A stretch of 62,006 nt of DNA, from positions 1 to 62,006 of the IMG/VR virus record IMGVR_UViG_3300028394_000083, one strand, 5' to 3'. Shown one piece after another: positions 13,658 to 25,011 of the stretch (positions within the stretch are counted from its first letter, which is position 1; the number at the start of each line of letters is the position of its first letter). The notes beneath the pieces were generated by a model. The model was not told the DNA's origin, did no database searches, and worked only from the letters and a program-made list of their open reading frames with translations. The position numbers and the translations under genes were made by a program. This DNA is from a virus (Duplodnaviria; Caudoviricetes).

Positions 13658-14005
13658 ATGAAAAGAATAATTAGACTTACAGAATCAGATTTAGCAAGAA
13701 TTGTTAGACGAACCATTAATGAAAACATGGATAACGACACCGCATTAAATGTTTATAGAAAATTAAAACATAACGGTGAAATTATGGACGAAACGTATAA
13801 AAAAATTAAAAATATTAGAGAAGATCTTGATATGTTGGTAACGAGACATGTTAGAGGTGGAACTGCTGATACTATATTTGATAATAACAAAAGAACGCCT
13901 AGAGAAGTTTCTGATAATGTCCAACAACTATCTAGAAAAATAAATGAACTTGAAGGACTTTTAGATCAATACAAAAGATTTGTTAAAGGATCGATATCTA
14001 ATTAA
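13658..14005 (+). CDS. leader-bearing hypothetical protein
   Basis: MKRIIRLTESDLARIVRRTINE start. Confidence 0.8.
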   Translation: MKRIIRLTESDLARIVRRTINENMDNDTALNVYRKLKHNGEIMDETYKKIKNIREDLDMLVTRHVRGGTADTIFDNNKRTPREVSDNVQQLSRKINELEGLLDQYKRFVKGSISN

Positions 14006-14024
14006 AATATTAAATGAAAAAATA

Positions 14025-14750
14025 ATGAAAAGAATAATAAGACTTACAGAATCGGATTTAGCAAGAATTGTTAGACGTGTGATTAAAGAAAACGAATATG
14101 AAGAAGATGAATATGACGAAGATGACGAAGATTATAAAGCATTTATAGATTCATATAGTGATGAACCTATAAATACCCCTAAAACACGAATGGCCGATTT
14201 TAATGAACCATACGATTCAATTGGAGGACATTCCGTAAACGATTTAAAAAGGGCGTTTAATAAGACGAAGAGGGAAGATGAAGAGTGGGGACAAACAGAC
14301 GCAGGTAAACAACAATCACAGGACTTAATTAATATGGCAATAGATATATTAGAAGACGAATACGGTTATGATGGGGATGAACTTAACGAAATGAATGAGA
14401 TGGATATTGTTGAATCTTTATATGAAGAGGGCGAAGACGATTTGGCATCACAAATAGAATACCTATTAGATGAAGAAGGTATTGGTGAAAGAAGTGGAGG
14501 TGAATTAGGTGAGGGTTTTGATGATGATCTTACCAAACGTAGATTTAAAGATTATAATCCGGCTAACTTTAGAAGAATACCAAAAGACGCATTAAGAACA
14601 GGAATGAGAGACTTTGAAGGAACGGAGTTAATGGGTGCTGAAGAAGATCCATTTGACGACTATAAAGATCTAAGTATGTATAACCCATATTATGGTACGA
14701 ATGATGATGATTTTGAAGATGAAGACTTTGACGACGAAGAATTTGTATAA
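14025..14750 (+). CDS. leader-bearing highly acidic protein
   Basis: Same leader; D/E-rich body. Confidence 0.8.
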   Translation: MKRIIRLTESDLARIVRRVIKENEYEEDEYDEDDEDYKAFIDSYSDEPINTPKTRMADFNEPYDSIGGHSVNDLKRAFNKTKREDEEWGQTDAGKQQSQDLINMAIDILEDEYGYDGDELNEMNEMDIVESLYEEGEDDLASQIEYLLDEEGIGERSGGELGEGFDDDLTKRRFKDYNPANFRRIPKDALRTGMRDFEGTELMGAEEDPFDDYKDLSMYNPYYGTNDDDFEDEDFDDEEFV

Positions 14751-14769
14751 TTAAAAATAATAAAAACAC

Positions 14770-14838
14770 TTGTCAATTTAAAAAAAATACCTATATTTGT
14801 AGGGTAATTAAAACTTTTAGAAAAAACTATATATTTAT
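14770..14838 (+). promoter_or_regulatory. tandem promoters for leader 1 and tRNA array 1
   Basis: TTG at 14770 with TATATTTG at 14792-14799 (host type); TATTTAT at 14832 (phage type). Confidence 0.65.
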
Positions 14839-14844
14839 AACAAG

Positions 14845-14955
14845 ATGAAAACAACTAATAAACATATGAACATTTGTAACCCGAGCATTCAGTGGTCGTT
14901 TAACGTGTATCGTACGCTTAAGTCGCATATTAGGGCATTTTCATTTATGAGTTGA
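14845..14955 (+). CDS. putative attenuator leader peptide 1 (36 aa)
   Basis: MKTTNKHMNICNPSIQWSFNVYRTLKSHIRAFSFMS; lies between promoter and terminator; codons mirror the downstream tRNAs. Confidence 0.75.
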   Translation: MKTTNKHMNICNPSIQWSFNVYRTLKSHIRAFSFMS

Positions 14956-14986
14956 TAAAGATTAACAAAAATAAAAAGGAATATAA

Positions 14987-15017
14987 GACCCGAACTAAAA
15001 ACAGTTCGGGTTTTTTT
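14987..15017 (+). terminator. attenuator terminator upstream of tRNA array 1
   Basis: gacccgaact-aaaaac-agttcgggtt with T7, ending 14 nt before tRNA-Thr. Confidence 0.88.
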
Positions 15018-15031
15018 ATACCCAAAAATTT

Positions 15032-15104
15032 GGTTCCTTAGTATAGTTTGGTAATATCCCGGCTTTGTAACCCGGAGTCATCAGTTCGACCCTGATAGGA
15101 ACCT
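15032..15104 (+). tRNA. tRNA-Thr(TGT)
   Basis: Cloverleaf; loop tttgtaa. Confidence 0.85.
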
Positions 15105-15118
15105 CAAAAAAAGAAAAA

Positions 15119-15130
15119 GTTCTTTGACAT
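15119..15130 (+). promoter_or_regulatory. boxA-like element
   Basis: GTTCTTTGACAT. Confidence 0.65.
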
Positions 15131-15144
15131 ATTGGCTTCATTAA

Positions 15145-15228
15145 GGAGAGATAATCACAGCGGCTTGTGACACCGTCTTGAAAACGGTTGGTACTGAAAG
15201 GTATGGGGATCGGCACCTCATCTCTCCT
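15145..15228 (+). tRNA. tRNA-Ser(TGA)
   Basis: accgt-cttgaaa-acggt; long variable arm. Confidence 0.85.
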
Positions 15229-15236
15229 CTGTAAAT

Positions 15237-15321
15237 TGCGGGGTAGACGAATTAGGCAAAGTCACCAGGTTTTGACCCTGGAGGTAAATTACCATTGGAG
15301 GTTCGATCCCTCCCCCCGTAG
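15237..15321 (+). tRNA. tRNA-Gln(TTG) with long variable arm
   Basis: ccagg-ttttgac-cctgg; extra arm ggt-aaatt-acc. Confidence 0.82.
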
Positions 15322-15332
15322 CAAAAAAATAA

Positions 15333-15403
15333 CGAGTGTGTGGTGTAATGGTTGCACAGGATGTTTGGGACATTCGGGAGACGTTCGATTCGTACACATT
15401 CGA
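15333..15403 (+). tRNA. tRNA-Pro(TGG)
   Basis: ggatg-tttggga-cattc; short T stem. Confidence 0.75.
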
Positions 15404-15465
15404 CAATCGTATAAAAAGATTTTGACTAAAAGTGATTTTTACGACAAATACAAATATTTATTAAT

Positions 15466-15999
15466 ATGGAGATAGATATTATAAAAAACAGTAAAACAAA
15501 ATCACAAGCAGTTCGTTCTATATATGGATACGATAATGGGACATCAAGAAGAAAGTTTGAAAAACTTATTAAAGAAAATGAGATTGATATTTCACATTTA
15601 ACTAAACAACCTTTTATCTATGAAAGAAAAATAAAAGATTGTCCTGTTTGCGGAAATAAATTTGAAACAATGGTTAATCATAAACGAGAAAAAACTACCT
15701 GTTCATACTCTTGTTCAAACACGTATTTTAGATCAGGAGAAAATAACCCAAATTATGGTAATTTGTCAGGGGAAAAAAATCATTACAGAAGAATCTGTTT
15801 TGAATACCATAAAAAAGAATGTGTTGTCTGCGGAGAAAATAAAATAGTTTCAGTACATCATTATGATGAAAACCATAATAACAACTCAATTGATAATTTA
15901 ATACCTTTATGTCCGACACATCATCAGTACGTTCATTCAAGATATAAAGATGAGGTTATAGAAAAAATTGATGATTATAGAAATAAAATAAACAAATAA
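15466..15999 (+). CDS. HNH endonuclease
   Basis: CVVC...VHHYDENHNNN...NLIPLCPTHH. Confidence 0.88.
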   Translation: MEIDIIKNSKTKSQAVRSIYGYDNGTSRRKFEKLIKENEIDISHLTKQPFIYERKIKDCPVCGNKFETMVNHKREKTTCSYSCSNTYFRSGENNPNYGNLSGEKNHYRRICFEYHKKECVVCGENKIVSVHHYDENHNNNSIDNLIPLCPTHHQYVHSRYKDEVIEKIDDYRNKINK

Positions 16000-16039
16000 A
16001 AATAAGTGTTATGGAAAGTGACAAGTATGACAAACAGAA

Positions 16040-16112
16040 CCCCTCGTAGCTTAGTCGGGAAAGCACCATACTTTTAATATGGGGAGAGTCGGATCGTAAC
16101 CGGCCGGGGGGA
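16040..16112 (+). tRNA. tRNA-Lys(TTT)
   Basis: ccata-cttttaa-tatgg. Confidence 0.88.
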
Positions 16113-16182
16113 CAAAAAAAATTTAGTAAAAAAGAACGATAATTACCAAAAAATGGTTATCTTCGTTCCAAGAAACTAAAAC

Positions 16183-16256
16183 ACACTCTTAGCTCAGATG
16201 GTAGTAGCGGTAGTATTACAAACTACAGGTCACAGGTTCGATCCCTGTAGAGTGTA
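16183..16256 (+). tRNA. tRNA-Val(TAC)
   Basis: gtagt-attacaa-actac. Confidence 0.88.
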
Positions 16257-16260
16257 CAAA

Positions 16261-16341
16261 GGGTACCAAAAGTCGTTCGGATACGGCAGCGAAACTGTAA
16301 ATTTCGTCCTCACGGGAGTGGTTCGAGTCCACTGGGACCCA
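16261..16341 (+). tRNA. tRNA-Tyr(GTA)
   Basis: cgaaa-ctgtaaa-tttcg; variable arm present. Confidence 0.82.
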
Positions 16342-16349
16342 CAATAAAT

Positions 16350-16422
16350 GGACAAGTAGCTCAATTGGTAGAGCAATCGGCTGTTAACCGATAGGTTGTA
16401 GGATCGTACCCTTCCTTGTCCG
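16350..16422 (+). tRNA. tRNA-Asn(GTT)
   Basis: atcgg-ctgttaa-ccgat. Confidence 0.9.
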
Positions 16423-16428
16423 CAATAA

Positions 16429-16501
16429 GTTCACGTAGCTCAATTGGTAGAGTGTTTGTCTGATACGCAAAAGGTAATGGGATCGTAACCCGTCGTGAAC
16501 A
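16429..16501 (+). tRNA. tRNA-Ile(GAT)
   Basis: tttgt-ctgatac-gcaaa. Confidence 0.9.
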
Positions 16502-16558
16502 CAAAAAGGGGAGTAACTTGTGTGGGTGCCCTAACTACTGCAGGAGTACCACACTCTA

Positions 16559-16645
16559 TGGAAGATAAACCTTGATGGAGATAGGGTCCGCCTGCTAAGC
16601 GAGACGTACCCGTAAGGGTATTTGGTTCGATTCCAATGTCTTCCT
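16559..16645 (+). tRNA. tRNA-Ser(GCT)
   Basis: Loop ctgctaa; variable arm taccc-gtaa-gggta. Confidence 0.82.
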
Positions 16646-16751
16646 CGATTAAAATCCGGAAATTTTCCGGATAGGATGACTTTTTTTCCGGATAGACATC
16701 TACAATTGAATAATCTATTAGGAAAATTTCCGGATAGATATAAAACAACAA

Positions 16752-16819
16752 CCCGTATGATCAGGGATCAAAGTTGGCTCATATCCGACTTGAGGTTGGT
16801 TCAAGTCCAACATACGGGA
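16752..16819 (+). tRNA. tRNA(CAT), elongator Met or Ile2, with minimal D arm
   Basis: gttgg-ctcatat-ccgac; perfect acceptor and T arms; 68 nt. Confidence 0.75.
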
Positions 16820-16826
16820 CTTATAT

Positions 16827-16900
16827 GGTGTATGTAGCTCAGTTGGTAGAGTGCCGTTCTGTGAAAGCGGAGGTCGTGGGATCGTGACCCATCATACACA
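16827..16900 (+). tRNA. tRNA-His(GTG)
   Basis: G-1 present; ccgtt-ctgtgaa-agcgg. Confidence 0.9.
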
Positions 16901-16901
16901 C

Positions 16902-17074
16902 AAAAGATGATAAGAAGCGTAGAATGACAGACGTGGAGAGACGTGTCGTAAGGGTACACACTAAGGATAGGTGTCCAATCTTAATTGTATTGATGTAATA
17001 ACCCAACTCTCTAATGGTGTGTGAAGCTTTGATAGAAGTAGCGGGATTCCTGATAAAGTCATTCATCATCTTTT
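16902..17074 (+). ncRNA. unidentified structured ncRNA within tRNA array 1
   Basis: Closing stems aaaagatgat/atcatctttt and gaatgac/gtcattc. Confidence 0.55.
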
Positions 17075-17116
17075 TTTGACATCCGAAGTCGGTCCCGAGC
17101 TAGGTCGGGCACTACT

Positions 17117-17188
17117 GCAAGACTAGTGTAATGGCTAACACGGATGATTCCAAACCATCAAATTTCTGTTCGACTCGGAAGTTTTGCG
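17117..17188 (+). tRNA. tRNA-Trp(CCA)
   Basis: Loop ttccaaa; cloverleaf. Confidence 0.82.
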
Positions 17189-17260
17189 CAAATTTTTCAA
17201 AAAAAATACATTAGAGTTCGATTTTGTTAAAGTGTGTGATATTTATATATAAAGGGTATT

Positions 17261-18169
17261 ATGTTTATATATAATTGTAAATTTTGTGGGGAAGTTGAAA
17301 TCAAAAGTTCTAAGCACGCGGGATCTCACGTAACTAATTGTTTAAAAAACCCAAATAGAGGTAAGTCATTTGAAAAACTTAAAGTTGCTGGAAAAACTAA
17401 TTCAATCGAAAAAAGAAACGATGCAATTATTAAATACAACAAAAACCCAAAAAAATGTAAGAATTGTGAATTACCAATATCTTACGACAAAAAAAATAAT
17501 AACTACTGCGGACATTCTTGTAGTGCTTCATATACAAATAAAAATAGAAAAACAAAAAAATATCAATTATCTGAAAAGGGATTGGAAAGTTTAAAACTTT
17601 CAGCAGAGAAGAGAAGAAAAAAATTAATAGAATTTTATAAAAAAAATCCAGAAAAGAAAAAACAGATAATAAAAAATTTAATAGAAAAAAACACCAAAAC
17701 AAGAGTTGAATTTATTTGTCCTGTTTGTGGTAAAATCTTAATGGTAACTGAAAATGAATTTAAAAAACGAAAATACTGTGGAGGTACTTGTAGAAATAAA
17801 ATAAATAATAAACAAATTTTTGGTACAAGATCGAAAGCTGAAGTTTATTTGGAAGAAACTTTGAAAAACAAATTTCCAAATTTAATGATGATGTTTAATG
17901 ATAGGGAACTATTAAATGGTAAAGAACTTGATGTTTATATCCCAAGTTTAAATTTAGCAATAGAATGGAATGGAATTTATCATTATAAAAAAATAAGGGA
18001 TGATGAATCTTTTGAAAAAACCACAAATAAAGACAAACAAAAAATATCTGATTGTGTCAAATTGAATATTGAACTATATGTGGTTAAAGATTTAACAAGT
18101 GGTAAGAAATTTATTAAAGAAGAAACAGAAAAAATTATTAAATTTGTAAAACAAAAAATACAAGAGTAG
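17261..18169 (+). CDS. Vsr/DUF559-like PD-(D/E)xK homing endonuclease with Zn fingers
   Basis: SKAE...ELDVYIP...AIEWNGIYH...D; several CxxC motifs. Confidence 0.8.
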   Translation: MFIYNCKFCGEVEIKSSKHAGSHVTNCLKNPNRGKSFEKLKVAGKTNSIEKRNDAIIKYNKNPKKCKNCELPISYDKKNNNYCGHSCSASYTNKNRKTKKYQLSEKGLESLKLSAEKRRKKLIEFYKKNPEKKKQIIKNLIEKNTKTRVEFICPVCGKILMVTENEFKKRKYCGGTCRNKINNKQIFGTRSKAEVYLEETLKNKFPNLMMMFNDRELLNGKELDVYIPSLNLAIEWNGIYHYKKIRDDESFEKTTNKDKQKISDCVKLNIELYVVKDLTSGKKFIKEETEKIIKFVKQKIQE

Positions 18170-18243
18170 TATAATGGTAAAACATTGGGGCCCGCGACCC
18201 CGAAGATACGACGTAGAGTTTGGTTCGATTCCCGTCTCTTGTG
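18160..18243 (+). tRNA. atypical tRNA (anticodon ambiguous CCG/CGC/GCG; possibly Arg)
   Basis: Acceptor acaagag/ctcttgt; arm tgggg-cccgcga-ccccg; weak T stem. Confidence 0.5.
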
Positions 18244-18249
18244 CAAAAA

Positions 18250-18325
18250 GGAACTATGGTGTAAGCATGGTGTGTCACGCTGGACTGAAAATCCAGAGGT
18301 TAGAGTTCGACTCTCTATGGTTCCG
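18250..18325 (+). tRNA. tRNA-Phe(GAA)
   Basis: ctgga-ctgaaaa-tccag. Confidence 0.88.
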
Positions 18326-18341
18326 CAAACAAATAGAAATA

Positions 18342-18797
18342 ATGAACAGAGTATTTAGAACGGTTAACGGTGAAACAATTCCTGATGTGGTAAAACATAC
18401 CTTAGATGTTCTGAAAGAATGTCCCTGGGTGGAAGTACACATCGGTACAGACTCACAAAACCACAGAAGAAGTACCGTGTATGTTACGGTAATAGCTTAT
18501 AGGTATGGGAATAGAGGTGTCCATTATATTCTTCACAAACAAAAAGTGAAAAAAATAAGAGATAAGTGGACACGTCTTTGGAATGAAGCCGATTATTCAA
18601 TTGAGGTTGCCGAATGGTTAACCAAAAAAGTAAAGGTGCAAGTTGAGATTGACTTAGATTATAATAGTCAAGAAAAACATTTCAGTTCAAAATTGGTTCA
18701 ACCAGTTGTTGGGTGGGCAACATCGTTGGGGTATAAAACAAACATTAAACCCGACAATCAAATTGCAACAAAGGCGGCAGATCACCACTGCCGTTAA
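18342..18797 (+). CDS. RNase H-like YkuK/DUF458 family protein
   Basis: IGTDSQ...RLWNEADYS...EIDLDYN...IKPD..ATKAADH; true start at 18342. Confidence 0.8.
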   Translation: MNRVFRTVNGETIPDVVKHTLDVLKECPWVEVHIGTDSQNHRRSTVYVTVIAYRYGNRGVHYILHKQKVKKIRDKWTRLWNEADYSIEVAEWLTKKVKVQVEIDLDYNSQEKHFSSKLVQPVVGWATSLGYKTNIKPDNQIATKAADHHCR

Positions 18798-18802
18798 TAT
18801 AA

Positions 18803-18874
18803 GGACCTATGGCCGAGAGATTTAGGTGCCGGTCTGCAAAACCGGTTAGATTGGTTTGATTCCAATTAGGTCCT
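18803..18874 (+). tRNA. tRNA-Cys(GCA)
   Basis: ccggt-ctgcaaa-accgg. Confidence 0.9.
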
Positions 18875-18883
18875 CAATAAAAT

Positions 18884-18964
18884 GCCTTCGTGGTGGAATG
18901 GTAGACACATCCGGCTTAGACCCGGATTCCGAAAGGAGTGAGAGTTCGAGTCTCTCCGAAGGTA
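18884..18964 (+). tRNA. tRNA-Leu(TAG)
   Basis: tccgg-cttagac-ccgga; variable arm present. Confidence 0.9.
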
Positions 18965-18975
18965 CAAAAAAGATT

Positions 18976-19014
18976 AATCCGTTATATGTTGTGAAACATT
19001 TGACGGATTTTTTT
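18976..19014 (+). terminator. terminator ending tRNA array 1
   Basis: aatccgtt...gacggatt followed by a T run. Confidence 0.65.
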
Positions 19015-19049
19015 ATATATTGATATATTTATATATAAAATAAAAAATT

Positions 19050-19556
19050 ATGAGAAAAATTATTAAATTAACAGAATCAGATTTAACAAGGATTGTTAAA
19101 CGTGTAATGAATGAAGGTGGGTACGCATCTATTGAAAAAGAAATGAAAACAAGCAGAATGGCATCTAAAGGGGTTACAGGTCTTTTTGGAATGATTGGTA
19201 AACTAATGATTGGGTTTGGTAAATTGAAAACAATGTTAAAAGGAGATTCATTTGAACATGCACAATATGAAATTGCTAGTGAATTAATGGATGATTGTTT
19301 AGATCTTAGAGAAACTTTGAGTATTTTAAAACAATTGGTTTCTTCATTTGAAAAAAGAGATATGAAATTACACAAAAGTGATTTTGAAGATTATGGTATT
19401 GATCTTGAATTTTTGTTAAATAGTTTAGAAAAAATCTACGATAAAGTTAGAGAGTTAGAAGAAATGGCTGAAGACGACGCAACAATAAAAAATCTTGGAG
19501 TGTTAGAAAGATCGTTGGATAAAATAGTAGATTTACTTGATAGTATTGAAGACTAA
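19050..19556 (+). CDS. leader-bearing hypothetical protein
   Basis: MRKIIKLTESDLTRIVKRVMNE; TATTTAT at 19026. Confidence 0.8.
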   Translation: MRKIIKLTESDLTRIVKRVMNEGGYASIEKEMKTSRMASKGVTGLFGMIGKLMIGFGKLKTMLKGDSFEHAQYEIASELMDDCLDLRETLSILKQLVSSFEKRDMKLHKSDFEDYGIDLEFLLNSLEKIYDKVRELEEMAEDDATIKNLGVLERSLDKIVDLLDSIED

Positions 19557-19567
19557 AATAAAATATT

Positions 19568-20023
19568 ATGAATAGAAGTTTCAGTAAAATAAGACACATC
19601 CAAGAATCCAATCTTAGATTAGAAAAAAGACTATTAAAAGAAGAGACTGATGAATTAAAAGATGATAAGTTGCAACAGATTATTGACATGGACCAAGAGT
19701 TTGATAACGACCCAACCTATAAAAGATACGAAAAGGTTTATACCAATAATAAATTAATGGGTATGATGAAAACTAGAATGGGTATGAGTTTAGATGATAT
19801 GGATGAAGACCAACTACTATCAATGCTCAAAACGGTTACATCGATGATGGGTGGTCGTGAAAAGAAAGAAAAACCTGAAATGACTCGTGAAATGATACTT
19901 AATCGTAAAGAAAGTATAATGGATATTGTAAGTCAGATAGAAGAAATGGCCGTTGAGGACAATGAGTTTGAATTGGCATCAAAATTAAGGGATTATAATA
20001 ATTTACTACAAAATTATAATTAA
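19568..20023 (+). CDS. leader-bearing protein with C-terminal UVR-like helix pair
   Basis: ...ESNLRLEKRLLKEE start; MAVEDNEFELASKLRD. Confidence 0.75.
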   Translation: MNRSFSKIRHIQESNLRLEKRLLKEETDELKDDKLQQIIDMDQEFDNDPTYKRYEKVYTNNKLMGMMKTRMGMSLDDMDEDQLLSMLKTVTSMMGGREKKEKPEMTREMILNRKESIMDIVSQIEEMAVEDNEFELASKLRDYNNLLQNYN

Positions 20024-20041
20024 TAAAATAAAAACAAAATT

Positions 20042-20305
20042 ATGAATAGATTAACAGAAAGAGACTTGTCAAGAATTGTTAGACAAGTTATTAAAGAAGA
20101 CAAAGATAAAAAAACTATGAATGACATACCTGATAGTTTTTTTAAAAGTTTTTTATCAAAAACTAGTGATATAATGACAAGTGAGGAGTTTTCTGAAATT
20201 GAAGATATTTTAGGAAAGAGAGTTGGTGCTAATGGTCAAGGTATGGGAGATGTTTTTGAAAAAATATTCATAGAAGCAAGAACAAGAACAAGAAGAAGAG
20301 ATTAA
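20042..20305 (+). CDS. leader-bearing hypothetical protein
   Basis: MNRLTERDLSRIVRQVIKE. Confidence 0.78.
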   Translation: MNRLTERDLSRIVRQVIKEDKDKKTMNDIPDSFFKSFLSKTSDIMTSEEFSEIEDILGKRVGANGQGMGDVFEKIFIEARTRTRRRD

Positions 20306-20306
20306 T

Positions 20307-20645
20307 ATGAAAAAAATAGTAAGACTAACAGAATCACAATTGATTAATGTGATTGAAAAAGTAATTAAAGAAGGGTCAATAGATAAATCAACAAAAGAAA
20401 AAGATCTTGATGTTAAAATGGAAAATATTAGAGATAAGATCAAAAATTTTATTAAATCAAAAGACTGTAAAGTAAAACAAGTTGGGACCGATTTTGAGAT
20501 ACATTGCGATGGAGAACATGTAGGACAAGTTATGTTTAGAAGAAATGCAATCACAATCAAAAAAGAAGGTAATAAATTCGGAAAAGATTTTAAATTCAAC
20601 GAAATGGGTGAAATTAAATCCGAACTTTCAAAAATTATTAAATAA
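20307..20645 (+). CDS. leader-bearing hypothetical protein
   Basis: MKKIVRLTESQLINVIEKVIKE. Confidence 0.78.
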   Translation: MKKIVRLTESQLINVIEKVIKEGSIDKSTKEKDLDVKMENIRDKIKNFIKSKDCKVKQVGTDFEIHCDGEHVGQVMFRRNAITIKKEGNKFGKDFKFNEMGEIKSELSKIIK

Positions 20646-20701
20646 AACTTGACACTTTTAAAAAGTATCATATATTTATAACAAAACAAATAAAAACGCA
20701 A

Positions 20702-20776
20702 ATGAAAAATTTACATATCATACTATTAGGCGGATTGGCGATAGCTGAGGATCGTTCCTTTAGGGAGGTGGTATGA
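20702..20776 (+). CDS. putative attenuator leader peptide 2 (24 aa)
   Basis: MKNLHIILLGGLAIAEDRSFREVV; TATTTAT at 20673; 3' end complementary to the terminator 5' arm. Confidence 0.75.
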   Translation: MKNLHIILLGGLAIAEDRSFREVV

Positions 20777-20800
20777 TAATTTAATACATAATAAATTTTG

Positions 20801-20831
20801 AAACCCATCTCCAAAAGAGGTGGGTTTTTTT
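20801..20831 (+). terminator. attenuator terminator upstream of tRNA array 2
   Basis: aaacccatctc-caaaa-gaggtgggttt with T run, then boxA at 20832. Confidence 0.88.
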
Positions 20832-20917
20832 GTTCTTTGAAATATTGGTGGAAAAAAGTTTAAAAAAGATTTGGCAGATCAAAATAGATTACATATCTTT
20901 GTAGAAATAAAAAACAT

Positions 20918-21271
20918 ATGGGGATTTATATCTATACTTACAAGAAAAAATTTGATAAAAACGCAACACTCAATGGTGAGAAGGTTGTTGTTGGAGTGGC
21001 GACATTTCTTTGCAAATCAACTATGGGTGGTAACTACACACCGGCTGAGAATCGTGAGATGAATAGAGCATGGAATCTTACAAAGGATTTCCAACCTGAG
21101 TATATCACGTTTGATGGTGAGAACGTATACAAAAACAACAAGTTCGGTATGTGGAATGATGGTTCAGGTTTTTATGGTGGTATTAATCACGAAAATGATT
21201 TTGTTGGGGTATTAAAAAAAATAGGTAGAAAATATGTTGTAAAAAATCTTACAAAAGTTTTGGCAAATTAA
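20918..21271 (+). CDS. hypothetical protein with own host-type promoter
   Basis: TATCTTTG at 20894. Confidence 0.75.
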   Translation: MGIYIYTYKKKFDKNATLNGEKVVVGVATFLCKSTMGGNYTPAENREMNRAWNLTKDFQPEYITFDGENVYKNNKFGMWNDGSGFYGGINHENDFVGVLKKIGRKYVVKNLTKVLAN

Positions 21272-21322
21272 AAGAGATTACATATCTTTGTAAGACAAAT
21301 AAGGAAAAAAGGTTCTTTGAAA
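21258..21322 (+). promoter_or_regulatory. host-type promoter plus boxA
   Basis: TTTG...TATCTTTG (21283), then GTTCTTTGAAA (21312). Confidence 0.7.
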
Positions 21323-21434
21323 TATTAAAAATATGTGGTTGTAAGAAACGGGAAACTCGTAAAGTGCATTAACCTGTTGACTCAAGATGGTGAAACGAGA
21401 GTTTGAGTCAACTACTAAACTACAAATGGTATAT

Positions 21435-21506
21435 CGCAGGATAGAGCAGTGGTAGCTCGCAAGGCTCATAACCTTGAGGTCGGAGGTTCGAACCCTTCTC
21501 CTGCAA
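21435..21506 (+). tRNA. tRNA-fMet(CAT)
   Basis: C1:A72 mismatch; caagg-ctcataa-ccttg. Confidence 0.9.
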
Positions 21507-21589
21507 CAACTAATAGCCAACCAAGCTTTACTACGATACGGGTAATACCTGTGGGTTAGGGGTGACGGTCAGGAGAGACTGACGATTAC

Positions 21590-21670
21590 GCTGACGTACC
21601 GGTGGATGCTTATATCATCTATGCCCGTAGAGGAAAGTTTTAAACGTTGGTTCGAGTCCAACCGTCAGTA
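21590..21670 (+). tRNA. atypical tRNA-Ile(TAT): no D arm, long variable region
   Basis: Acceptor gctgacg/cgtcagt; tggatg-cttatat-catcta; T arm gttgg-ttcgagt-ccaac. Confidence 0.6.
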
Positions 21671-21886
21671 CGGGAGTGTATACAGTAGAGTTCAACTTGA
21701 GAAGGATGTTAACACACTTAAAAGGGGGTAACAAGAGATCAGGTCGTTTAGTAGTTTTGACGAGAAAAACTGACGTTTTGTGGAGATAGTTTGTCGGACA
21801 AACTTACACCCGTGATGTTAGTAGGTTTGATCACCTCATTCACGTAAACAGTGACGAAACAAATCCCAACGAAGTAGTCACACTTT

Positions 21887-21958
21887 GCAGGTATCGTATA
21901 ATGGTTATTACTCCAGACTTCCAATTTGGAGATGAGTGTTCGATTCATTCTACCTGCA
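21887..21958 (+). tRNA. tRNA-Gly(TCC)
   Basis: ccaga-cttccaa-tttgg. Confidence 0.88.
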
Positions 21959-22053
21959 CGATGAGTAATATCCTATTGGTTATTTTTTTTAATATTTAAC
22001 TAAAAGTTTTGGTTATAAACTGATTTTTAACTCATTTCCAGATATTTATATAT

Positions 22054-22881
22054 ATGAGATGGGATAAAAATAAAGAAGAAATTTTGAAGAAATTAATTTC
22101 AGATGGTAAAACATATAAAGAAATTAGTGAAATAATGGTTACCACATTTAGATCTATAACTAATAAATGTCTTAGGCTAGGTATTAAAAGTAAGAAAGTA
22201 GAATCTAATGAGATTGTTAATTGCAATAACTGCGGTAAAAGTTTTATATCATATAAAAGAGATAATAGAAAATTTTGTAATTATAGTTGCAGTGCTCAGT
22301 TTAATAATACCGGTAGAGTTTTATCCAATGAAACTAAAAATAAAATCACTGATGGTGTAAAAAAATATAATAAAGAAAATAACATTGAAAAAGAAAGGTC
22401 AAGTTGCTTGACTTGTGGTAAAAAAGTTAATAAACCACACAACATATATTGTTCTCGTGAATGTAAAGACAAATGCCCAATTTATAAAGAAAAATTGAGT
22501 AAAAATATGAGGGATAAATTTAAATTAAATCCTGAATTACATCCGAATAGGTTGTGTGCTGGAATTAAGGAGTCTTACCCCGAACAATTTTTTAGGGAGT
22601 TTTTAGAAAAAAATGGACTTGTAAAAAATTTAGATTTTATACAACAATATAAAATTAGTTTATATTACGTTGATTTCTTTTTTCCGAAATTGAATCTATG
22701 TGTTGAAATTGATGGTGAAAGATTTCACGATGAGAAAAATGTTAAGGAAATTTTAAGAGAAAAGTACATAAAAGAAAAATACGAACTTAAAAGATATAAA
22801 GTTAAAATTTTACTAAAAAAAGAATATGAAAATGATATTTTATATATCATTAATAATGTAAAAAAAGATTTGGTAGATTGA
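22054..22881 (+). CDS. DUF559/Vsr-like homing endonuclease with Zn fingers
   Basis: ESYPE...YVDFFF...VEIDGERFH. Confidence 0.8.
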   Translation: MRWDKNKEEILKKLISDGKTYKEISEIMVTTFRSITNKCLRLGIKSKKVESNEIVNCNNCGKSFISYKRDNRKFCNYSCSAQFNNTGRVLSNETKNKITDGVKKYNKENNIEKERSSCLTCGKKVNKPHNIYCSRECKDKCPIYKEKLSKNMRDKFKLNPELHPNRLCAGIKESYPEQFFREFLEKNGLVKNLDFIQQYKISLYYVDFFFPKLNLCVEIDGERFHDEKNVKEILREKYIKEKYELKRYKVKILLKKEYENDILYIINNVKKDLVD

Positions 22882-22904
22882 AATAAAATACCTATCTTTG
22901 TATT

Positions 22905-23085
22905 ACAAATAAACCTTACAGAAGTCCGAATAGCGCGGATGAAAGGAACCTTGGCTCTCATAGGATCGCAACCTTTACGGAGAGTTTGAATGTCCCAAAG
23001 TACTCTGTTTAGGACCCTGCTCTGATGTGCACGTCAACAGGTGATGGGGAACAAACCATCAGTAAAATCCGTAAAAACGTTTTAT
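22905..23085 (+). ncRNA. unidentified ncRNA candidate
   Basis: GC-richer non-coding tract with hairpins after the TATCTTTG promoter at 22893. Confidence 0.4.
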
Positions 23086-23092
23086 TTTTTAT

Positions 23093-23162
23093 GGGCCTGA
23101 TGCCGACGGCAGGCTGACTGATTTGCGATCAGATCATTTGGGTTCGATTCCCACAGTGTCCA
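23093..23162 (+). tRNA. tRNA-Ala(TGC), atypical
   Basis: G3:U70 pair; ctga-tttgcga-tcag; bulged acceptor, tiny D loop. Confidence 0.7.
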
Positions 23163-23234
23163 CAAAAAAAGTTTGAAAAAGATTTGGCAGATTGAAATAG
23201 ATTACATATCTTTGTAGAACAAAAATAAAGAACT

Positions 23235-23516
23235 ATGACAAACACAGAGACAATTAAAACCGTAGGTTTAAAAATTACAAAAATTGAAGGATACGATTAT
23301 TGTTTGACAGGGTACCCAAACAAAAACACAATCCGTAATTGGGAAGATGCGTATGAGTTTGAAAGTTTTGTACAAGATGTTTTAAAGATTGAAGGTGAGT
23401 TTGATTCTGAAAGTGGTCAGTTCTACGTGTACTTCAAAACTAAACAAAAGGCAACTGCCGCTTTGAATAAGATTGAAAAACATTTCAAAAAAGTTGGTGA
23501 AATGTTAGGTTTGTAA
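23235..23516 (+). CDS. hypothetical protein with own host-type promoter
   Basis: TATCTTTG at 23207. Confidence 0.75.
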   Translation: MTNTETIKTVGLKITKIEGYDYCLTGYPNKNTIRNWEDAYEFESFVQDVLKIEGEFDSESGQFYVYFKTKQKATAALNKIEKHFKKVGEMLGL

Positions 23517-23524
23517 GAGTTAAT

Positions 23525-23598
23525 CGCCCGTTGGACAAGTGATTGAAGTCGCTTCCCTTTCACGGAAGAGATCATGGGTTTGAATCCCATACGGGTGA
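23525..23598 (+). tRNA. tRNA-Glu(TTC)
   Basis: cttcc-ctttcac-ggaag. Confidence 0.9.
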
Positions 23599-23599
23599 C

Positions 23600-23810
23600 A
23601 ATGAGTGAGAGATACTCAAGATGTTTTTAAGTTCATACAAAACTTAACGGAGCTGGTACTATCCACGTTAAGGGGTACTCTTTGGGAATCAGGCTGGAAG
23701 ATCCTCCTCGCCCCCAAGTAAGGGTTGACTTTTAAGTGGTAAGACACGTTGGGTTTTCAAATAGAAAAACTGTGAATATCTACTCACCATTAATCTCAGG
23801 TGGGGAAACT
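23600..23810 (+). ncRNA. unidentified ncRNA candidate
   Basis: Non-coding tract between tRNA-Glu and tRNA-Asp; ends in taatctcaggt like the large ncRNA. Confidence 0.45.
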
Positions 23811-23812
23811 TT

Positions 23813-23883
23813 GGTCCATTGGTGAAATATTATCATATCTGACTGTCTATCAGAAGTCCTCGGAGAGTAACCGGGATGAACCG
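23813..23883 (+). tRNA. tRNA-Asp(GTC)
   Basis: tctga-ctgtcta-tcaga; divergent T loop. Confidence 0.8.
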
Positions 23884-23905
23884 CACAAAGTGTTCTTTTA
23901 AAATA

Positions 23906-24046
23906 TTGATAGTGGTTTTCCCCACCTCAACGGATGTCGACAATCCAGAGTGGATCAGGAATTCATCACCCTTTCTGCCGGGGCCCTGATAAAAGTCAGA
24001 AGAAGCAGTTAAGATTGGAGCGAGAAGGGTACTCCATCACTATCAA
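23906..24046 (+). ncRNA. unidentified structured ncRNA
   Basis: 9-bp closing stem ttgatagtg/cactatcaa; shares cctgataaa(a)gtca with 16902-17074. Confidence 0.55.
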
Positions 24047-24053
24047 AATATTT

Positions 24054-24168
24054 AGTCAGGTGGCGGAATGGTAGACGCTAAGAAAGAGATGAACTTTGTA
24101 TCTAAGTGTAAACACATGATGATACGCTAAAGCATAATCTCATACAGGTTCGAGTCCTGTCCTGACTA
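24054..24168 (+). ncRNA. tRNA-Leu-like shell with ~60-nt insert replacing the anticodon and variable arms
   Basis: agtcaggtggcggaatggtagacgc ... acaggttcgagtcctgtcctgacta. Confidence 0.7.
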
Positions 24169-24204
24169 CGTGGGAAAGATCTATCCCGAAAACAGAACAT
24201 GGAT

Positions 24205-24305
24205 CACAAACACGTAAACCTAAGTACCTGTACAGCGGTGAGTAACGGGCTAAGTTATATACAATTCCTCGGAGCTGGGAGTAGAATGCTTAGGAGCGTG
24301 TTTTT
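24205..24305 (+). ncRNA. unidentified structured RNA candidate
   Basis: Nested stems aaacacg/cgtgttt and cctaagta/tgcttagg. Confidence 0.45.
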
Positions 24306-24394
24306 AAAATATAAAAAACTATGACACCATTATTGTTTCTATTATTTATTATGTTTATCTTTTTAGTAAGAAAACGAAGATAAAATTATTGGTT

Positions 24395-24510
24395 GGTCAG
24401 GAGTGTAATGAGGCACGGTGCCGAGTCCCCAAGACCAATAGTCCCAGACACTTGTGGGTTCTATGGAGTCGTAAGGTTGCTCATTGTGGGTTCGACTCCC
24501 ACCCTGACAA
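24395..24510 (+). ncRNA. tRNA-like shell with long insert
   Basis: gtcagg/cctgac acceptor, D arm, perfect T arm gtggg-ttcgact-cccac, ~65-nt insert. Confidence 0.6.
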
Positions 24511-24549
24511 CACTTGACATTATTAAATTAATGCCTTATTATTATACAA

Positions 24550-24623
24550 AACCGGGTAGCTCAGCTGGTAGAGCAATCCTTTTTAAACAGGACGTGTCAT
24601 TGGTTCAATCCCTTTCCCGGTTT
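24550..24623 (+). pseudogene. degenerate tRNA (anticodon unclear)
   Basis: Good acceptor and D arm; 8-nt anticodon loop; broken T stem. Confidence 0.55.
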
Positions 24624-24647
24624 TTTTATTTATAAAATTAAAATATT

Positions 24648-24854
24648 ATGAAAAAGTTTCTTTTATTGGTTTTGTCTTATGTTCTGTCATTCAGTATTGT
24701 TTGGATTGGTTTGGGGTTGTTCAAATACTATTTGGAATCAGAATCATCAATCGGAACTTTTTTAATTGGATTAGTTGGTTTTTTCGTTGCCATTAATCCC
24801 GCGATGGATGTTTGGGAAAAATTATTCAAACGCTGGTTTAAAATCAAAGAATAA
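24648..24854 (+). CDS. small two-TM membrane protein
   Basis: Two hydrophobic segments. Confidence 0.65.
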   Translation: MKKFLLLVLSYVLSFSIVWIGLGLFKYYLESESSIGTFLIGLVGFFVAINPAMDVWEKLFKRWFKIKE

Positions 24855-25011
24855 TAATTTAATAGTATGATCCACTCAAGAGGAGTGTTGGAACGGAGTT
24901 TGTTAATCTATTTATTAAAAAAAACATTATGGAAGTAATTATCGCATGTTTAGTACCGATCGCGTTGATAGGTATTATGGTAGTATCTTATTTGACCTAC
25001 AAGGGGAGATA

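What the first reader, a model, noticed from the sequence alone, without database searches (positions are those of the whole stretch)
14770..18964. Codon-matched leader-peptide attenuator in front of tRNA array 1: a possible phage sensor of host tRNA failure
Seen: promoters (14792, 14832), a 36-codon ORF (14845-14955), a strong intrinsic terminator (14987-15017), then 17 tRNA genes with boxA at 15119. The ORF core is close to one codon per tRNA: TGT AAC CCG AGC ATT CAG TGG TCG TTT AAC GTG TAT CGT ACG CTT AAG TCG CAT, plus an internal ATG. These correspond to the array's Cys-GCA, Asn-GTT, Pro-TGG, Ser-GCT, Ile-GAT, Gln-TTG, Trp-CCA, Ser-TGA, Phe-GAA, Val-TAC, Tyr-GTA, Thr-TGT, Leu-TAG, Lys-TTT, His-GTG and CAT tRNAs; CGT matches only the atypical Arg-like tRNA at 18160. 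Both Ser codon boxes are represented. Gly, Glu and Asp are absent from both leader and array; the one Ala codon is in the 3' tail. Many codons are wobble or G-ending forms unusual for this AT-rich genome. The ORF tail (uuaggg...auuuu...uuuau, 14930-14948) can pair imperfectly with auaaa...ggaau...cccgaa, which includes the terminator 5' arm. Established: this is the geometry of trp/his/thr/ilv attenuators, and phage tRNAs counter host anticodon nucleases (PrrC, PARIS AriB). Inference: stalling at any depleted or cleaved tRNA allows read-through into the replacement tRNAs. I know of no description of a multiplex attenuator controlling phage tRNA arrays.
Basis: partly seen in the sequence, partly recalled or inferred. 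Interest (0 to 1): 0.95.

Follow-up and report, generated by a model that had tools for sequence, protein, structure and literature searches.

The report
Codon-matched leader gene before phage tRNAs
A tiny 36-codon gene and a transcription stop sit just before this lake phage's block of 17 tRNA genes, and the tiny gene uses the amino acids whose tRNAs follow, so it is probably a trp-operon-style switch for tRNA supply, although the RNA switch looks weak in this copy.

Summary
The window has a conserved promoter, a 36-codon ORF (14845-14955), a strong intrinsic terminator (14988-15017) and 17 tRNA or tRNA-like genes (15032-18965).

- **The ORF is a translated leader.** All 40 complete copies in IMG/VR keep the frame despite 3-nt indels. 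dN/dS is about 0.7.
- **The leader tracks the tRNA block.** 33 of 34 distinct peptides keep all 16 amino-acid types of the block, against 17.6 in column shuffles. Asp, Glu, Gly and Ala are nearly excluded.
- **Unrelated leaders behave the same way.** A composition-blind search found nine leader families before other phage tRNA blocks. Each is enriched in its own block's amino acids. The true pairing was the single best of all 40,320 orderings (8 representatives), and only in the reading frame.
- **The switch is weak here.** No convincing antiterminator is predicted in this copy: -4.3 to -7 kcal/mol against -12 for the terminator. Sister families, and module 2 of this window, have strong covarying ones.
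- **Untested.** Stalling-dependent read-through and any link to anticodon nucleases remain untested.

Four literature searches found no account of such control. This scan has noted the same thing before on other DNA. Verdict: first reading partly supported; a new variant of leader-peptide attenuation.

The parts
14770..14798 (+). distal promoter-like site (TTGTCA, 16 nt, TATATT; overlaps TATATTTG, a Bacteroidota -7-like box)
   Evidence: 10 of 12 matches. A similar sequence at 22862-22923 lies upstream of the freshwater-1 RNA. Naming it a Bacteroidota promoter type rests on recall.
14808..14841 (+). proximal conserved promoter-like box (CTTTT, about 10 nt, TATATTTATAAC), 3 nt before the ATG
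   Evidence: 9 of 12. The positions are invariant in the 28-sequence alignment. The exact 12-mer occurs only here and at 20671 in the window. The same box precedes the leaders of other families.
14845..14955 (+). leader ORF, 36 codons plus TGA (MKTTNKHMNICNPSIQWSFNVYRTLKSHIRAFSFMS)
   Evidence: The frame is kept in 40 of 40 complete copies with lengths of 34-36 codons. dN/dS is 0.72. 33 of 34 distinct peptides keep all 16 amino-acid types of the block. No Pfam or PHROG family matches.
14889..14900 (+). mid-ORF segment (codons Ile-Gln-Trp-Ser), the best predicted partner of the terminator 5' arm in this copy
   Evidence: -7.0 kcal/mol, no better than codon shuffles (p = 0.21). The homologous segment in divergent members L063 and L084 gives -13.7 and -11.8 (p = 0.006 and 0.036).
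14930..14935 (+).
   Evidence: 5 pairs of 9 and -4.3 kcal/mol in the window. It gives 6-7 pairs in relatives with other terminator stems.
14951..14966 (+). small hairpin that holds the stop codon
   Evidence: pairs at columns 162-167 with 172-177. One pair changes on both sides in 4 sequences of one clade, and G-U/A-U alternate at another pair.
14988..15017 (+). intrinsic terminator: 9-10 bp stem, 6-nt loop, T7
   Evidence: -12.0 kcal/mol. The stem covaries in homologues: 7, 1, 9 and 9 sequences have both sides changed at four pairs.
15032..18965 (+). tRNA block 1. In order: Thr-TGT, Ser-TGA, Gln-TTG, Pro-TGG, Lys-TTT, Val-TAC, Tyr-GTA, Asn-GTT, Ile-GAT, Ser-GCT, an odd tRNA-like element (16752-16820), His-GTG, Trp-CCA, an odd tRNA (18160-18244), Phe-GAA, Cys-GCA, Leu-TAG. 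Three ORFs are inserted.
   Evidence: The order is syntenic in relatives. No strict TTTG-N15-22-TANNTTTG promoter lies inside.
   Evidence: It is conserved in homologues and follows the terminators of other leader families. Its likeness to rrn boxA is recalled, not tested.

Best explanation
The 36-codon ORF is the translated leader of a ribosome-mediated transcription attenuator at the head of tRNA block 1. Transcripts start at the conserved promoter just upstream and meet a strong intrinsic terminator 15 nt before the first tRNA. The leader holds at least one codon for nearly every tRNA of the block and almost none for amino acids whose tRNAs lie elsewhere (Asp, Glu, Gly).

Inferred working: when all these codons are read quickly, the ribosome reaches the stop codon and the terminator forms. 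When it stalls for want of any one of these tRNAs, an alternative pairing or loss of coupling lets RNA polymerase read through into the tRNA genes, which then relieve the stall.

Shown here: the anatomy, translation-type conservation, the leader-to-block match, and the antiterminator in sister families. Inferred: the switch itself in this copy, and what triggers it.
For: Anatomy.

Conservation:
- The module stands 72-88 nt before the first tRNA in every one of the 39 IMG/VR loci with a complete leader ORF, and 77 nt in the window itself.
- 40 of 40 complete ORFs are in frame at 34-36 codons.
- dN/dS is 0.72 over 482 pairs. The peptide sequence is therefore free to change while the frame is kept.

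Repertoire constraint within the family:
- 33 of 34 distinct peptides hold all 16 amino-acid types of the canonical block. Column shuffles give 17.6 +/- 2.4, and 0 of 5000 reach 33.
- Asp, Glu, Gly or Ala make up 5 of 122 column states (P = 5e-7).
- The one peptide without Arg (L063) precedes a block without Arg tRNAs.

Independent families:
- A finder blind to composition found 93 modules, 59 distinct peptides and 9 families.
- Block amino-acid types are present in the block's own leader in 59 of 60 cases, and the true pairing was the single best of 40,320 orderings.
- Without this family the true pairing was again the single best, of 5040.
- Over 200 random choices of family members, the median p is 8e-6 and the maximum 1.1e-4.
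- By anticodon, 63 of 66 tRNAs have a cognate codon; 17 of 40,320 orderings reached the true pairing's coverage.
- The match exists only in the reading frame: summed z is 17.3 against 2.7, -2.7, -0.7, 1.3 and 0.9 in the other five frames.

Switch in sisters:
- The ORF 3' end copies the terminator 3' arm in L112 (-14.9), L194 (-11.6) and module 2 (about -10).
- In module 2 the cognate pairing scores -9.81 against -8.24 +/- 0.44 for shuffled pairings, reached by 0 of 5000.

No strict host-type promoter lies inside the block.
Against: - In this copy no antiterminator is predicted. The tail/5'-arm duplex is -4.3 and the best partner anywhere upstream is -7.0 kcal/mol (p = 0.21 against codon shuffles), compared with -12.0 for the terminator.
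- The 5' arm is 13% paired before the 3' arm exists.
- Across the family, the cognate tail/arm energy is no better than shuffled pairings (p = 0.30), although a base-pair count gave p = 1e-4.
- There are no runs of one regulatory codon as in trp or his leaders.
- Leaders stay unchanged where blocks have lost many tRNAs: L009/L010 begin with Trp, and L005 lacks six tRNAs.
- Asp or Gly codons occur in some leaders whose block lacks those tRNAs.
- Leader codons AGG, GCA and probably CGT have no cognate tRNA in the window's block.
- Most of the in-window significance comes from the absence of Asp, Glu and Gly, which any basic peptide would share.
- The statistics are not corrected for phylogeny.
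- There are no usable expression data: RNA-library contigs cover the leader but cannot show ends, and DNA carry-over is not excluded.
Confidence: 0.6

Rival explanations
1. The ORF is an independent micropeptide gene with its own promoter and terminator. The basic 36-residue peptide acts in trans, for example on ribosomes, RNA or a host defence. tRNA transcription comes from ordinary leakage through the terminator, and the codon match is a by-product of peptide composition.
For: - Some stretches are conserved down to silent sites: CCG, CAG TGG TCG, TAT, and the C-terminal Phe-Ser-Phe-Met-Ser.
- The antiterminator is weak in this copy.
- The leader is unchanged where the block is truncated.
- Lack of acidic residues is common in basic peptides.
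Against: - dN/dS of 0.72 is high for a functional peptide.
- Replacements keep to the block's 16 amino acids, and every type is retained in 33 of 34 variants.
- Eight other leader families with unrelated sequences each mirror their own tRNA block.
- No Pfam or PHROG family matches.
Confidence: 0.15
2. It is a general translation-rate sensor or a constitutive partial terminator. The leader and terminator set a fixed or globally modulated ratio of leader RNA to tRNA transcripts, without codon-specific sensing. The codon diversity only makes the ORF an average sample of translation.
For: - The three-segment design in sister modules (ORF tail, 5' arm, 3' arm) would give read-through whenever translation fails for any reason.
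- No single-codon runs are present.
- The weak switch here fits a mostly constitutive terminator.
Against: A general sensor needs no match between leader and block. Yet the match is specific to each block: for example, the two adjacent L194 leaders match Cys/Val/Leu and Phe/Glu/Asp/Ala respectively, and the permutation tests agree.
Confidence: 0.17
3. The region is a structured non-coding RNA (an sRNA or processing leader), and the ORF is fortuitous.
For: - The fold z-score is -2.3.
- The hairpin at the stop codon has one compensatory change.
- There is high nucleotide identity in parts of the region.
Against: - All indels inside the ORF are multiples of 3, and no copy has an in-frame stop (40 of 40), whereas the spacer after the stop has 1-2-nt indels.
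- Synonymous alternatives occur at conserved residues: Val GTC/GTG/GTT, Leu CTT/CTA/CTG, Arg CGT/AGA.
- RNAalifold finds no covarying helix inside the ORF.
- There is no Rfam match. Thr_leader scores 23.6 against 55 bits, and only over the terminator.
Confidence: 0.05

Closest known systems
Multivalent leader-peptide transcription attenuators of enterobacterial amino-acid operons (ilvGMEDA: Ile/Leu/Val; thr: Thr/Ile; also trpL, hisL, leuL, pheL). Recalled from general knowledge, not from a call.
   Same: A short translated ORF is followed by an intrinsic terminator before the regulated genes. The leader codons name what the operon supplies. In sister families the end of the ORF can pair with the terminator's 5' arm.
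   Different: The regulated genes are tRNAs, not biosynthetic enzymes. The leader samples up to 16 amino acids, mostly once each, in place of tandem runs. It sits in a phage. The antiterminator is weak in this copy. Rfam's leader models do not match.
T-box riboswitches (uncharged tRNA binds a leader RNA and prevents termination before aminoacyl-tRNA synthetase genes). Recalled.
   Same: tRNA status controls read-through of a terminator in a leader.
   Different: T-boxes sense one tRNA directly, by RNA-RNA contact and without translation. Here the sensor would be a ribosome on a coding leader. No T-box match was found in the Rfam scan.
Anabaena sp. PCC 7120 trn operon, a silent 26-gene tRNA array induced under translational stress (PMC8421152, passages read; PMC10272220, abstract read)
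   Same: An accessory tRNA array is turned on when translation is impaired.
   Different: Control there is at the promoter, by the RHH repressor TrcR binding direct repeats. The words attenuat-, leader and terminator occur 0 times in the 2021 paper. Here the element is a leader ORF plus terminator.
Antibiotic-responsive ribosome-mediated attenuators found by Term-seq (leaders before resistance genes).
   Same: A three-segment design in which a ribosome stalled in a short ORF frees an antiterminator.
   Different: The trigger there is a drug-stalled ribosome, and the leader does not mirror the product. Here the codon content mirrors the tRNA genes downstream.

Membership tests
Leader-peptide (ribosome-mediated) transcription attenuator | Short ORF in the 5' leader that is translated | tested here: met
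   By comparison only. The frame is kept in 40 of 40 copies with 3-nt indels, and synonymous alternatives occur at conserved residues. No ribosome-profiling evidence exists.
Leader-peptide (ribosome-mediated) transcription attenuator | Leader codons correspond to what the downstream genes supply | tested here: met
Family and cross-family tests agree.
Leader-peptide (ribosome-mediated) transcription attenuator | Intrinsic terminator between the leader ORF and the regulated genes | tested here: met
   Hairpin at 14988-15011 plus T7, -12.0 kcal/mol, with a covarying stem.
Leader-peptide (ribosome-mediated) transcription attenuator | Antiterminator structure that excludes the terminator and is controlled by ribosome position | tested here: inconclusive
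   Window: -4.3 (tail) or -7.0 (mid-ORF) kcal/mol, and P(paired) = 0.13. In 15 of 28 relatives P is 0.4 or more. It is strong in the sister families F2, F4 and F6 and in the divergent F1 members L063 and L084.
Leader-peptide (ribosome-mediated) transcription attenuator | Read-through rises when the ribosome stalls at the regulatory codons | not testable with these tools
   Needs Term-seq or reporter assays. RNA contigs cannot show transcript ends.
Rfam leader families (Thr_leader RF00506 and others) | Score at or above the family's gathering threshold | tested here: not met
   Thr_leader scores 23.6 bits against 55, over the terminator only. Nothing else matches in 14800-15020.
Known phage or cellular protein family for the peptide | Profile match in Pfam or PHROGs | tested here: not met
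   0 families at E up to 10.

The most novel reading that the evidence does not exclude
Large Bacteroidota-type phages split their tRNA genes into blocks. Each block is gated by its own 'test' gene written in the codons that the block's tRNAs read. A block is transcribed at full rate only when ribosomes stall for one of those very tRNAs. This would be a self-correcting supply loop, and it would also answer host tRNA cleavage or depletion during infection.
Probability: 0.45. Interest if true: 0.9.

Novelty: new variant of a known kind. Interest (0 to 1): 0.8.

Why it matters
Leader-peptide attenuation is a textbook mechanism known for amino-acid operons. Applied to tRNA genes, it would be a new way of matching tRNA supply to decoding demand.

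It would explain how and when phages express their large tRNA sets, a point that the searches found no account of. It also gives a direct, testable link between phage tRNAs and host defences that attack tRNAs.

The leaders are also a simple sequence signature. They could be used to mark the transcription units of tRNA arrays in uncultured phages.

Tried and rejected
- **Rfam scan of 14000-25000 at E up to 1.** No family matches the leader.
- **Pfam and PHROGs on both leader peptides.** Nothing. Searches failed on a coordinate slip for the second ORF and were corrected.
- **GenBank phage search with 14700-15130.** Only a 60-nt match to the tRNA in a Ralstonia phage.
- **5'/3' ORF helix (start codon paired with the ORF tail).** It appears in the single-sequence fold, but no pair changes on both sides. 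Not claimed.
- **A 'segment 1' (codons 4-6) pairing with the tail.** I saw this by eye in two clades, but the registers differ by three alignment columns. Not claimed.
- **Similarity of ORF nt 14878-14886 to the terminator 5' arm.** It does not covary with other terminator types (my reading). Rejected.
- **Leader 2 against block 2 in the window.** Full cover (6 of 6) has P = 0.24, not significant on its own.
- **Expression.** Contigs from RNA libraries of three studies (X1, X2, X4) cover 14753-14959. One X4 contig of a relative joins the leader tail to tRNA-Thr across a differing terminator. The contigs also cover the promoter, they cannot show ends or strand, and DNA carry-over is possible. 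I draw no conclusion on termination. Parts without cover (14974-15000 in all four runs) mean nothing.
- **GTDB genome scan with the leader core.** 17 hits, all G+C-rich (0.53-0.74) and none with the ORF. These are chance matches and give no host clue.
- **Chance hits dropped from the IMG/VR scans.** L023, L024, L027, L031, L032, L034 and L037, L039, L041, L045, L047, L049, L052, L053, L058.
- **ORFs dropped between module finders.** Three ORFs listed by the first finder (L006, L070, L181) overlap tRNA genes or another RNA. They did not pass the second finder's rule that the stop lie 10-60 nt before the hairpin, so they are not in the tests.
- **True relatives missed.** L132 and L159, relatives of families F6 and F4, were seen but missed. 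They are also not in the tests.
- **Supplements.** Supplementary files of papers were closed and none was needed.

Full report
**What is there.** The window is a 62-kb fragment of an IMG/VR virus record, 21% complete by CheckV.
- After the stop of an acidic protein gene at 14750 come two promoter-like sites: 14770-14797 (10 of 12 matches) and 14808-14835 (9 of 12).
- The ORF 14845-14955 has 36 codons.
- A small hairpin holds the stop codon, and an A-rich spacer follows.
- The terminator hairpin at 14988-15011 is followed by T7 and scores -12.0 kcal/mol.
- Fifteen nucleotides later tRNA-Thr begins.
It has C33 and a long arm and does not align with the Arg-ACG tRNAs of relatives.
- Rfam has no family for the leader.

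| Null model | Result |
|---|---|
| Random ORFs from the phage's codon usage | P(17 covered) = 1.6e-4; P(34 or more served) = 3e-5 |
| 36-codon windows of the long ORFs | 0 of 9808 reach it |
| Short ORFs of the window | 1 of 104 reaches it (the leader itself) |

Most of this signal is the absence of Glu, Asp and Gly, which make up 22% of the proteome. Any basic peptide would share that absence. The window alone therefore cannot decide the question.

**Relatives.**
- Four pattern scans of IMG/VR gave 42 loci with the same module. 15 further hits were chance matches and are listed under Tried and rejected.
- The ORF is complete in 39 of these loci. With the window's own copy that makes 40 complete ORFs, and all 40 are in frame at 34, 35 or 36 codons.
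- In those 39 loci the ORF ends 72-88 nt before the first tRNA of a syntenic block.
- The spacer behind the stop has 1-2-nt indels, and the terminator stem shows many compensatory changes.
- dN/dS is about 0.72 over 482 pairs with dS above 0.2. The frame matters but much of the peptide sequence does not, which fits a leader better than a working micropeptide.
- 33 of 34 distinct peptides still contain all 16 amino-acid types of the canonical block. If residues are shuffled within alignment columns only 17.6 +/- 2.4 do, and 0 of 5000 shuffles reach 33.
- Only 5 of 122 column-by-residue states are Asp, Glu, Gly or Ala (P = 5e-7).
- These tests are not corrected for shared descent.

**Points against strict tracking.** Leaders are unchanged before blocks that have lost many tRNAs (L009/L010, L005). 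A few leaders carry an Asp or Gly codon without such a tRNA in the block.

**Independent families.** A scan for the conserved promoter box followed by ATGAAAA returned other short ORFs in front of other tRNA blocks.

I then wrote a finder that ignores composition. It requires an ORF of 18-50 codons, a stop 10-60 nt before a hairpin plus T run, and a tRNA within 150 nt. It found 93 modules with 59 distinct peptides. Automatic clustering puts these into nine families.

| Locus and leader | tRNAs in its block | Leader residues (after Met) for those amino acids |
|---|---|---|
| L194, second leader | Phe, Glu, Asp, Ala | 15 of 28 |
| L194, first leader | Cys, Val, Leu, Leu | 10 of 24 |
| L154 | Pro, Asn, Asp, Gly, Gly, Thr, Ala | 17 of 33 |

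- Over eight representatives, 59 of 60 block amino-acid types occur in the block's own leader.
- The summed z-score of the true pairing (17.25) is the highest of all 40,320 pairings. Without the window's family it is the highest of 5040.
- With 200 random choices of one member per family, the exact p has a median of 8e-6 and a maximum of 1.1e-4.
- By anticodon, 63 of 66 tRNAs have a cognate codon in their own leader; 17 of 40,320 orderings reached the true pairing's coverage.
- The match is confined to the reading frame: summed z is 17.3 against 2.7, -2.7, -0.7, 1.3 and 0.9 in the other five frames. This excludes a base-composition artefact.

**The switch.**
- In several families the last codons of the leader are a near copy of the terminator's 3' arm, so they can pair with its 5' arm. 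Energies are -14.9 kcal/mol in L112, -11.6 in the first L194 leader and about -10 in module 2.
- In module 2 (window 20649-20838; ORF 20702-20776, 22-24 codons, frame kept in homologues) tail and arm covary. Cognate pairs score -9.81 against -8.24 +/- 0.44 for shuffled pairs, reached by 0 of 5000 shuffles.
- For the module under review the picture is weak. The tail TTAGGG gives only GGG:CCC plus two A-U pairs (-4.3 kcal/mol).
- The best partner anywhere upstream is the mid-ORF Gln-Trp-Ser segment at -7.0, no better than codon shuffles (p = 0.21).
- The 5' arm is only 13% paired before the 3' arm is made.
- In 15 of 28 relatives that probability is 0.4 or more. Divergent members of the same family have a strong mid-ORF partner, -13.7 and -11.8.
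- A base-pair count favours cognate tail/arm pairs (p = 1e-4), but the energy test does not (p = 0.30).

I therefore call the antiterminator of this copy unproven. The terminator may be tighter here, or read-through may depend on something else.

**Context.** The strict Bacteroidota-type promoter pattern occurs 20 times in the window against 7 expected. None lies inside 15032-18965, and four lie in the second tRNA region. As far as that motif goes, block 1 depends on the promoters before the leader.

The motif GTTCTTTGACATATTGG follows tRNA-Thr here and follows the terminators of module 2 and of other families. Its likeness to rrn boxA is my recollection only.

**Expression.** Contigs from RNA libraries of three studies cover the leader. 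One contig of a relative bridges the leader and tRNA-Thr. These contigs cannot show ends or exclude DNA.

**What is known.** Four full-text searches returned no paper on leader-peptide control of tRNA genes.

The nearest functional analogue in print is the Anabaena trn operon, which is induced by translational stress. It is controlled by the repressor TrcR at the promoter. I read passages of PMC8421152 and the abstract of PMC10272220.

The comparison with ilvGMEDA/thr leaders, T-boxes and drug-responsive attenuators rests on general knowledge.

Earlier agents of this scan reported the same kind of module, including this same 36-codon leader family, on other DNA. One of them also noted a weak switch. 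I treated these notes as leads and ran my own tests.

**Verdict.** The reading is partly supported. A translated leader matched to its tRNA block is well supported by comparison. Attenuation is supported by anatomy and by sister modules. The antiterminator in this copy, stalling-dependent read-through and the link to tRNA-targeting defences remain open.

Noticed in passing
window 20649-20838: A second promoter, leader and terminator module, paralogous at its promoter and ORF start. The ORF (20702-20776, 24 codons) keeps its frame in homologues. Its last codons copy the terminator 3' arm and covary with the stem (about -10 kcal/mol). In relatives tRNA-Leu-TAA follows directly. In this window the boxA-like motif and separate promoters follow instead.
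   Followed up: partly
window 23006-23067: freshwater-1 RNA (RF02979), 83.7 bits against a threshold of 72, between tRNA genes and behind a promoter like the one at 14770.
   Followed up: no
window 15119-15135, 20832-20848, 21312-21328: The repeated motif GTTCTTTGAMATATTGG follows terminators or the first tRNA, here and in other leader families. It may be a boxA-like antitermination or processing signal.
   Followed up: partly
window 18160-18244: An odd tRNA with anticodon loop CCCGCGA (ARAGORN calls it Ala-CGC, with C at position 33) and a long extra arm. It scores below Rfam's tRNA threshold and stands where relatives carry Arg-ACG.
   Followed up: partly
window 18174-18797: An ORF inside the tRNA block with an RNaseH_like domain (PF04308, E = 3.4e-25). 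The ORFs at 15466-15999 and 17261-18169, also inside the block, have no significant Pfam family. The first gives weak sub-threshold hits only and has Cys/His motifs.
   Followed up: partly
window 20870, 21259, 22869, 23183 (and 16 other places): Bacteroidota-type promoter pattern TTTG-N15-22-TANNTTTG: 20 matches against 7 expected. Four near-identical copies lie in the second tRNA region.
   Followed up: partly
   Followed up: no
L194 (IMG/VR locus), two adjacent modules: Two leaders stand 750 nt apart. The first is rich in Leu, Val and Cys and precedes Cys, Val, Leu, Leu tRNAs. The second is rich in Phe, Ala, Glu and Asp and precedes Phe, Glu, Asp, Ala tRNAs. This is the clearest case of block-by-block matching.
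   Followed up: yes
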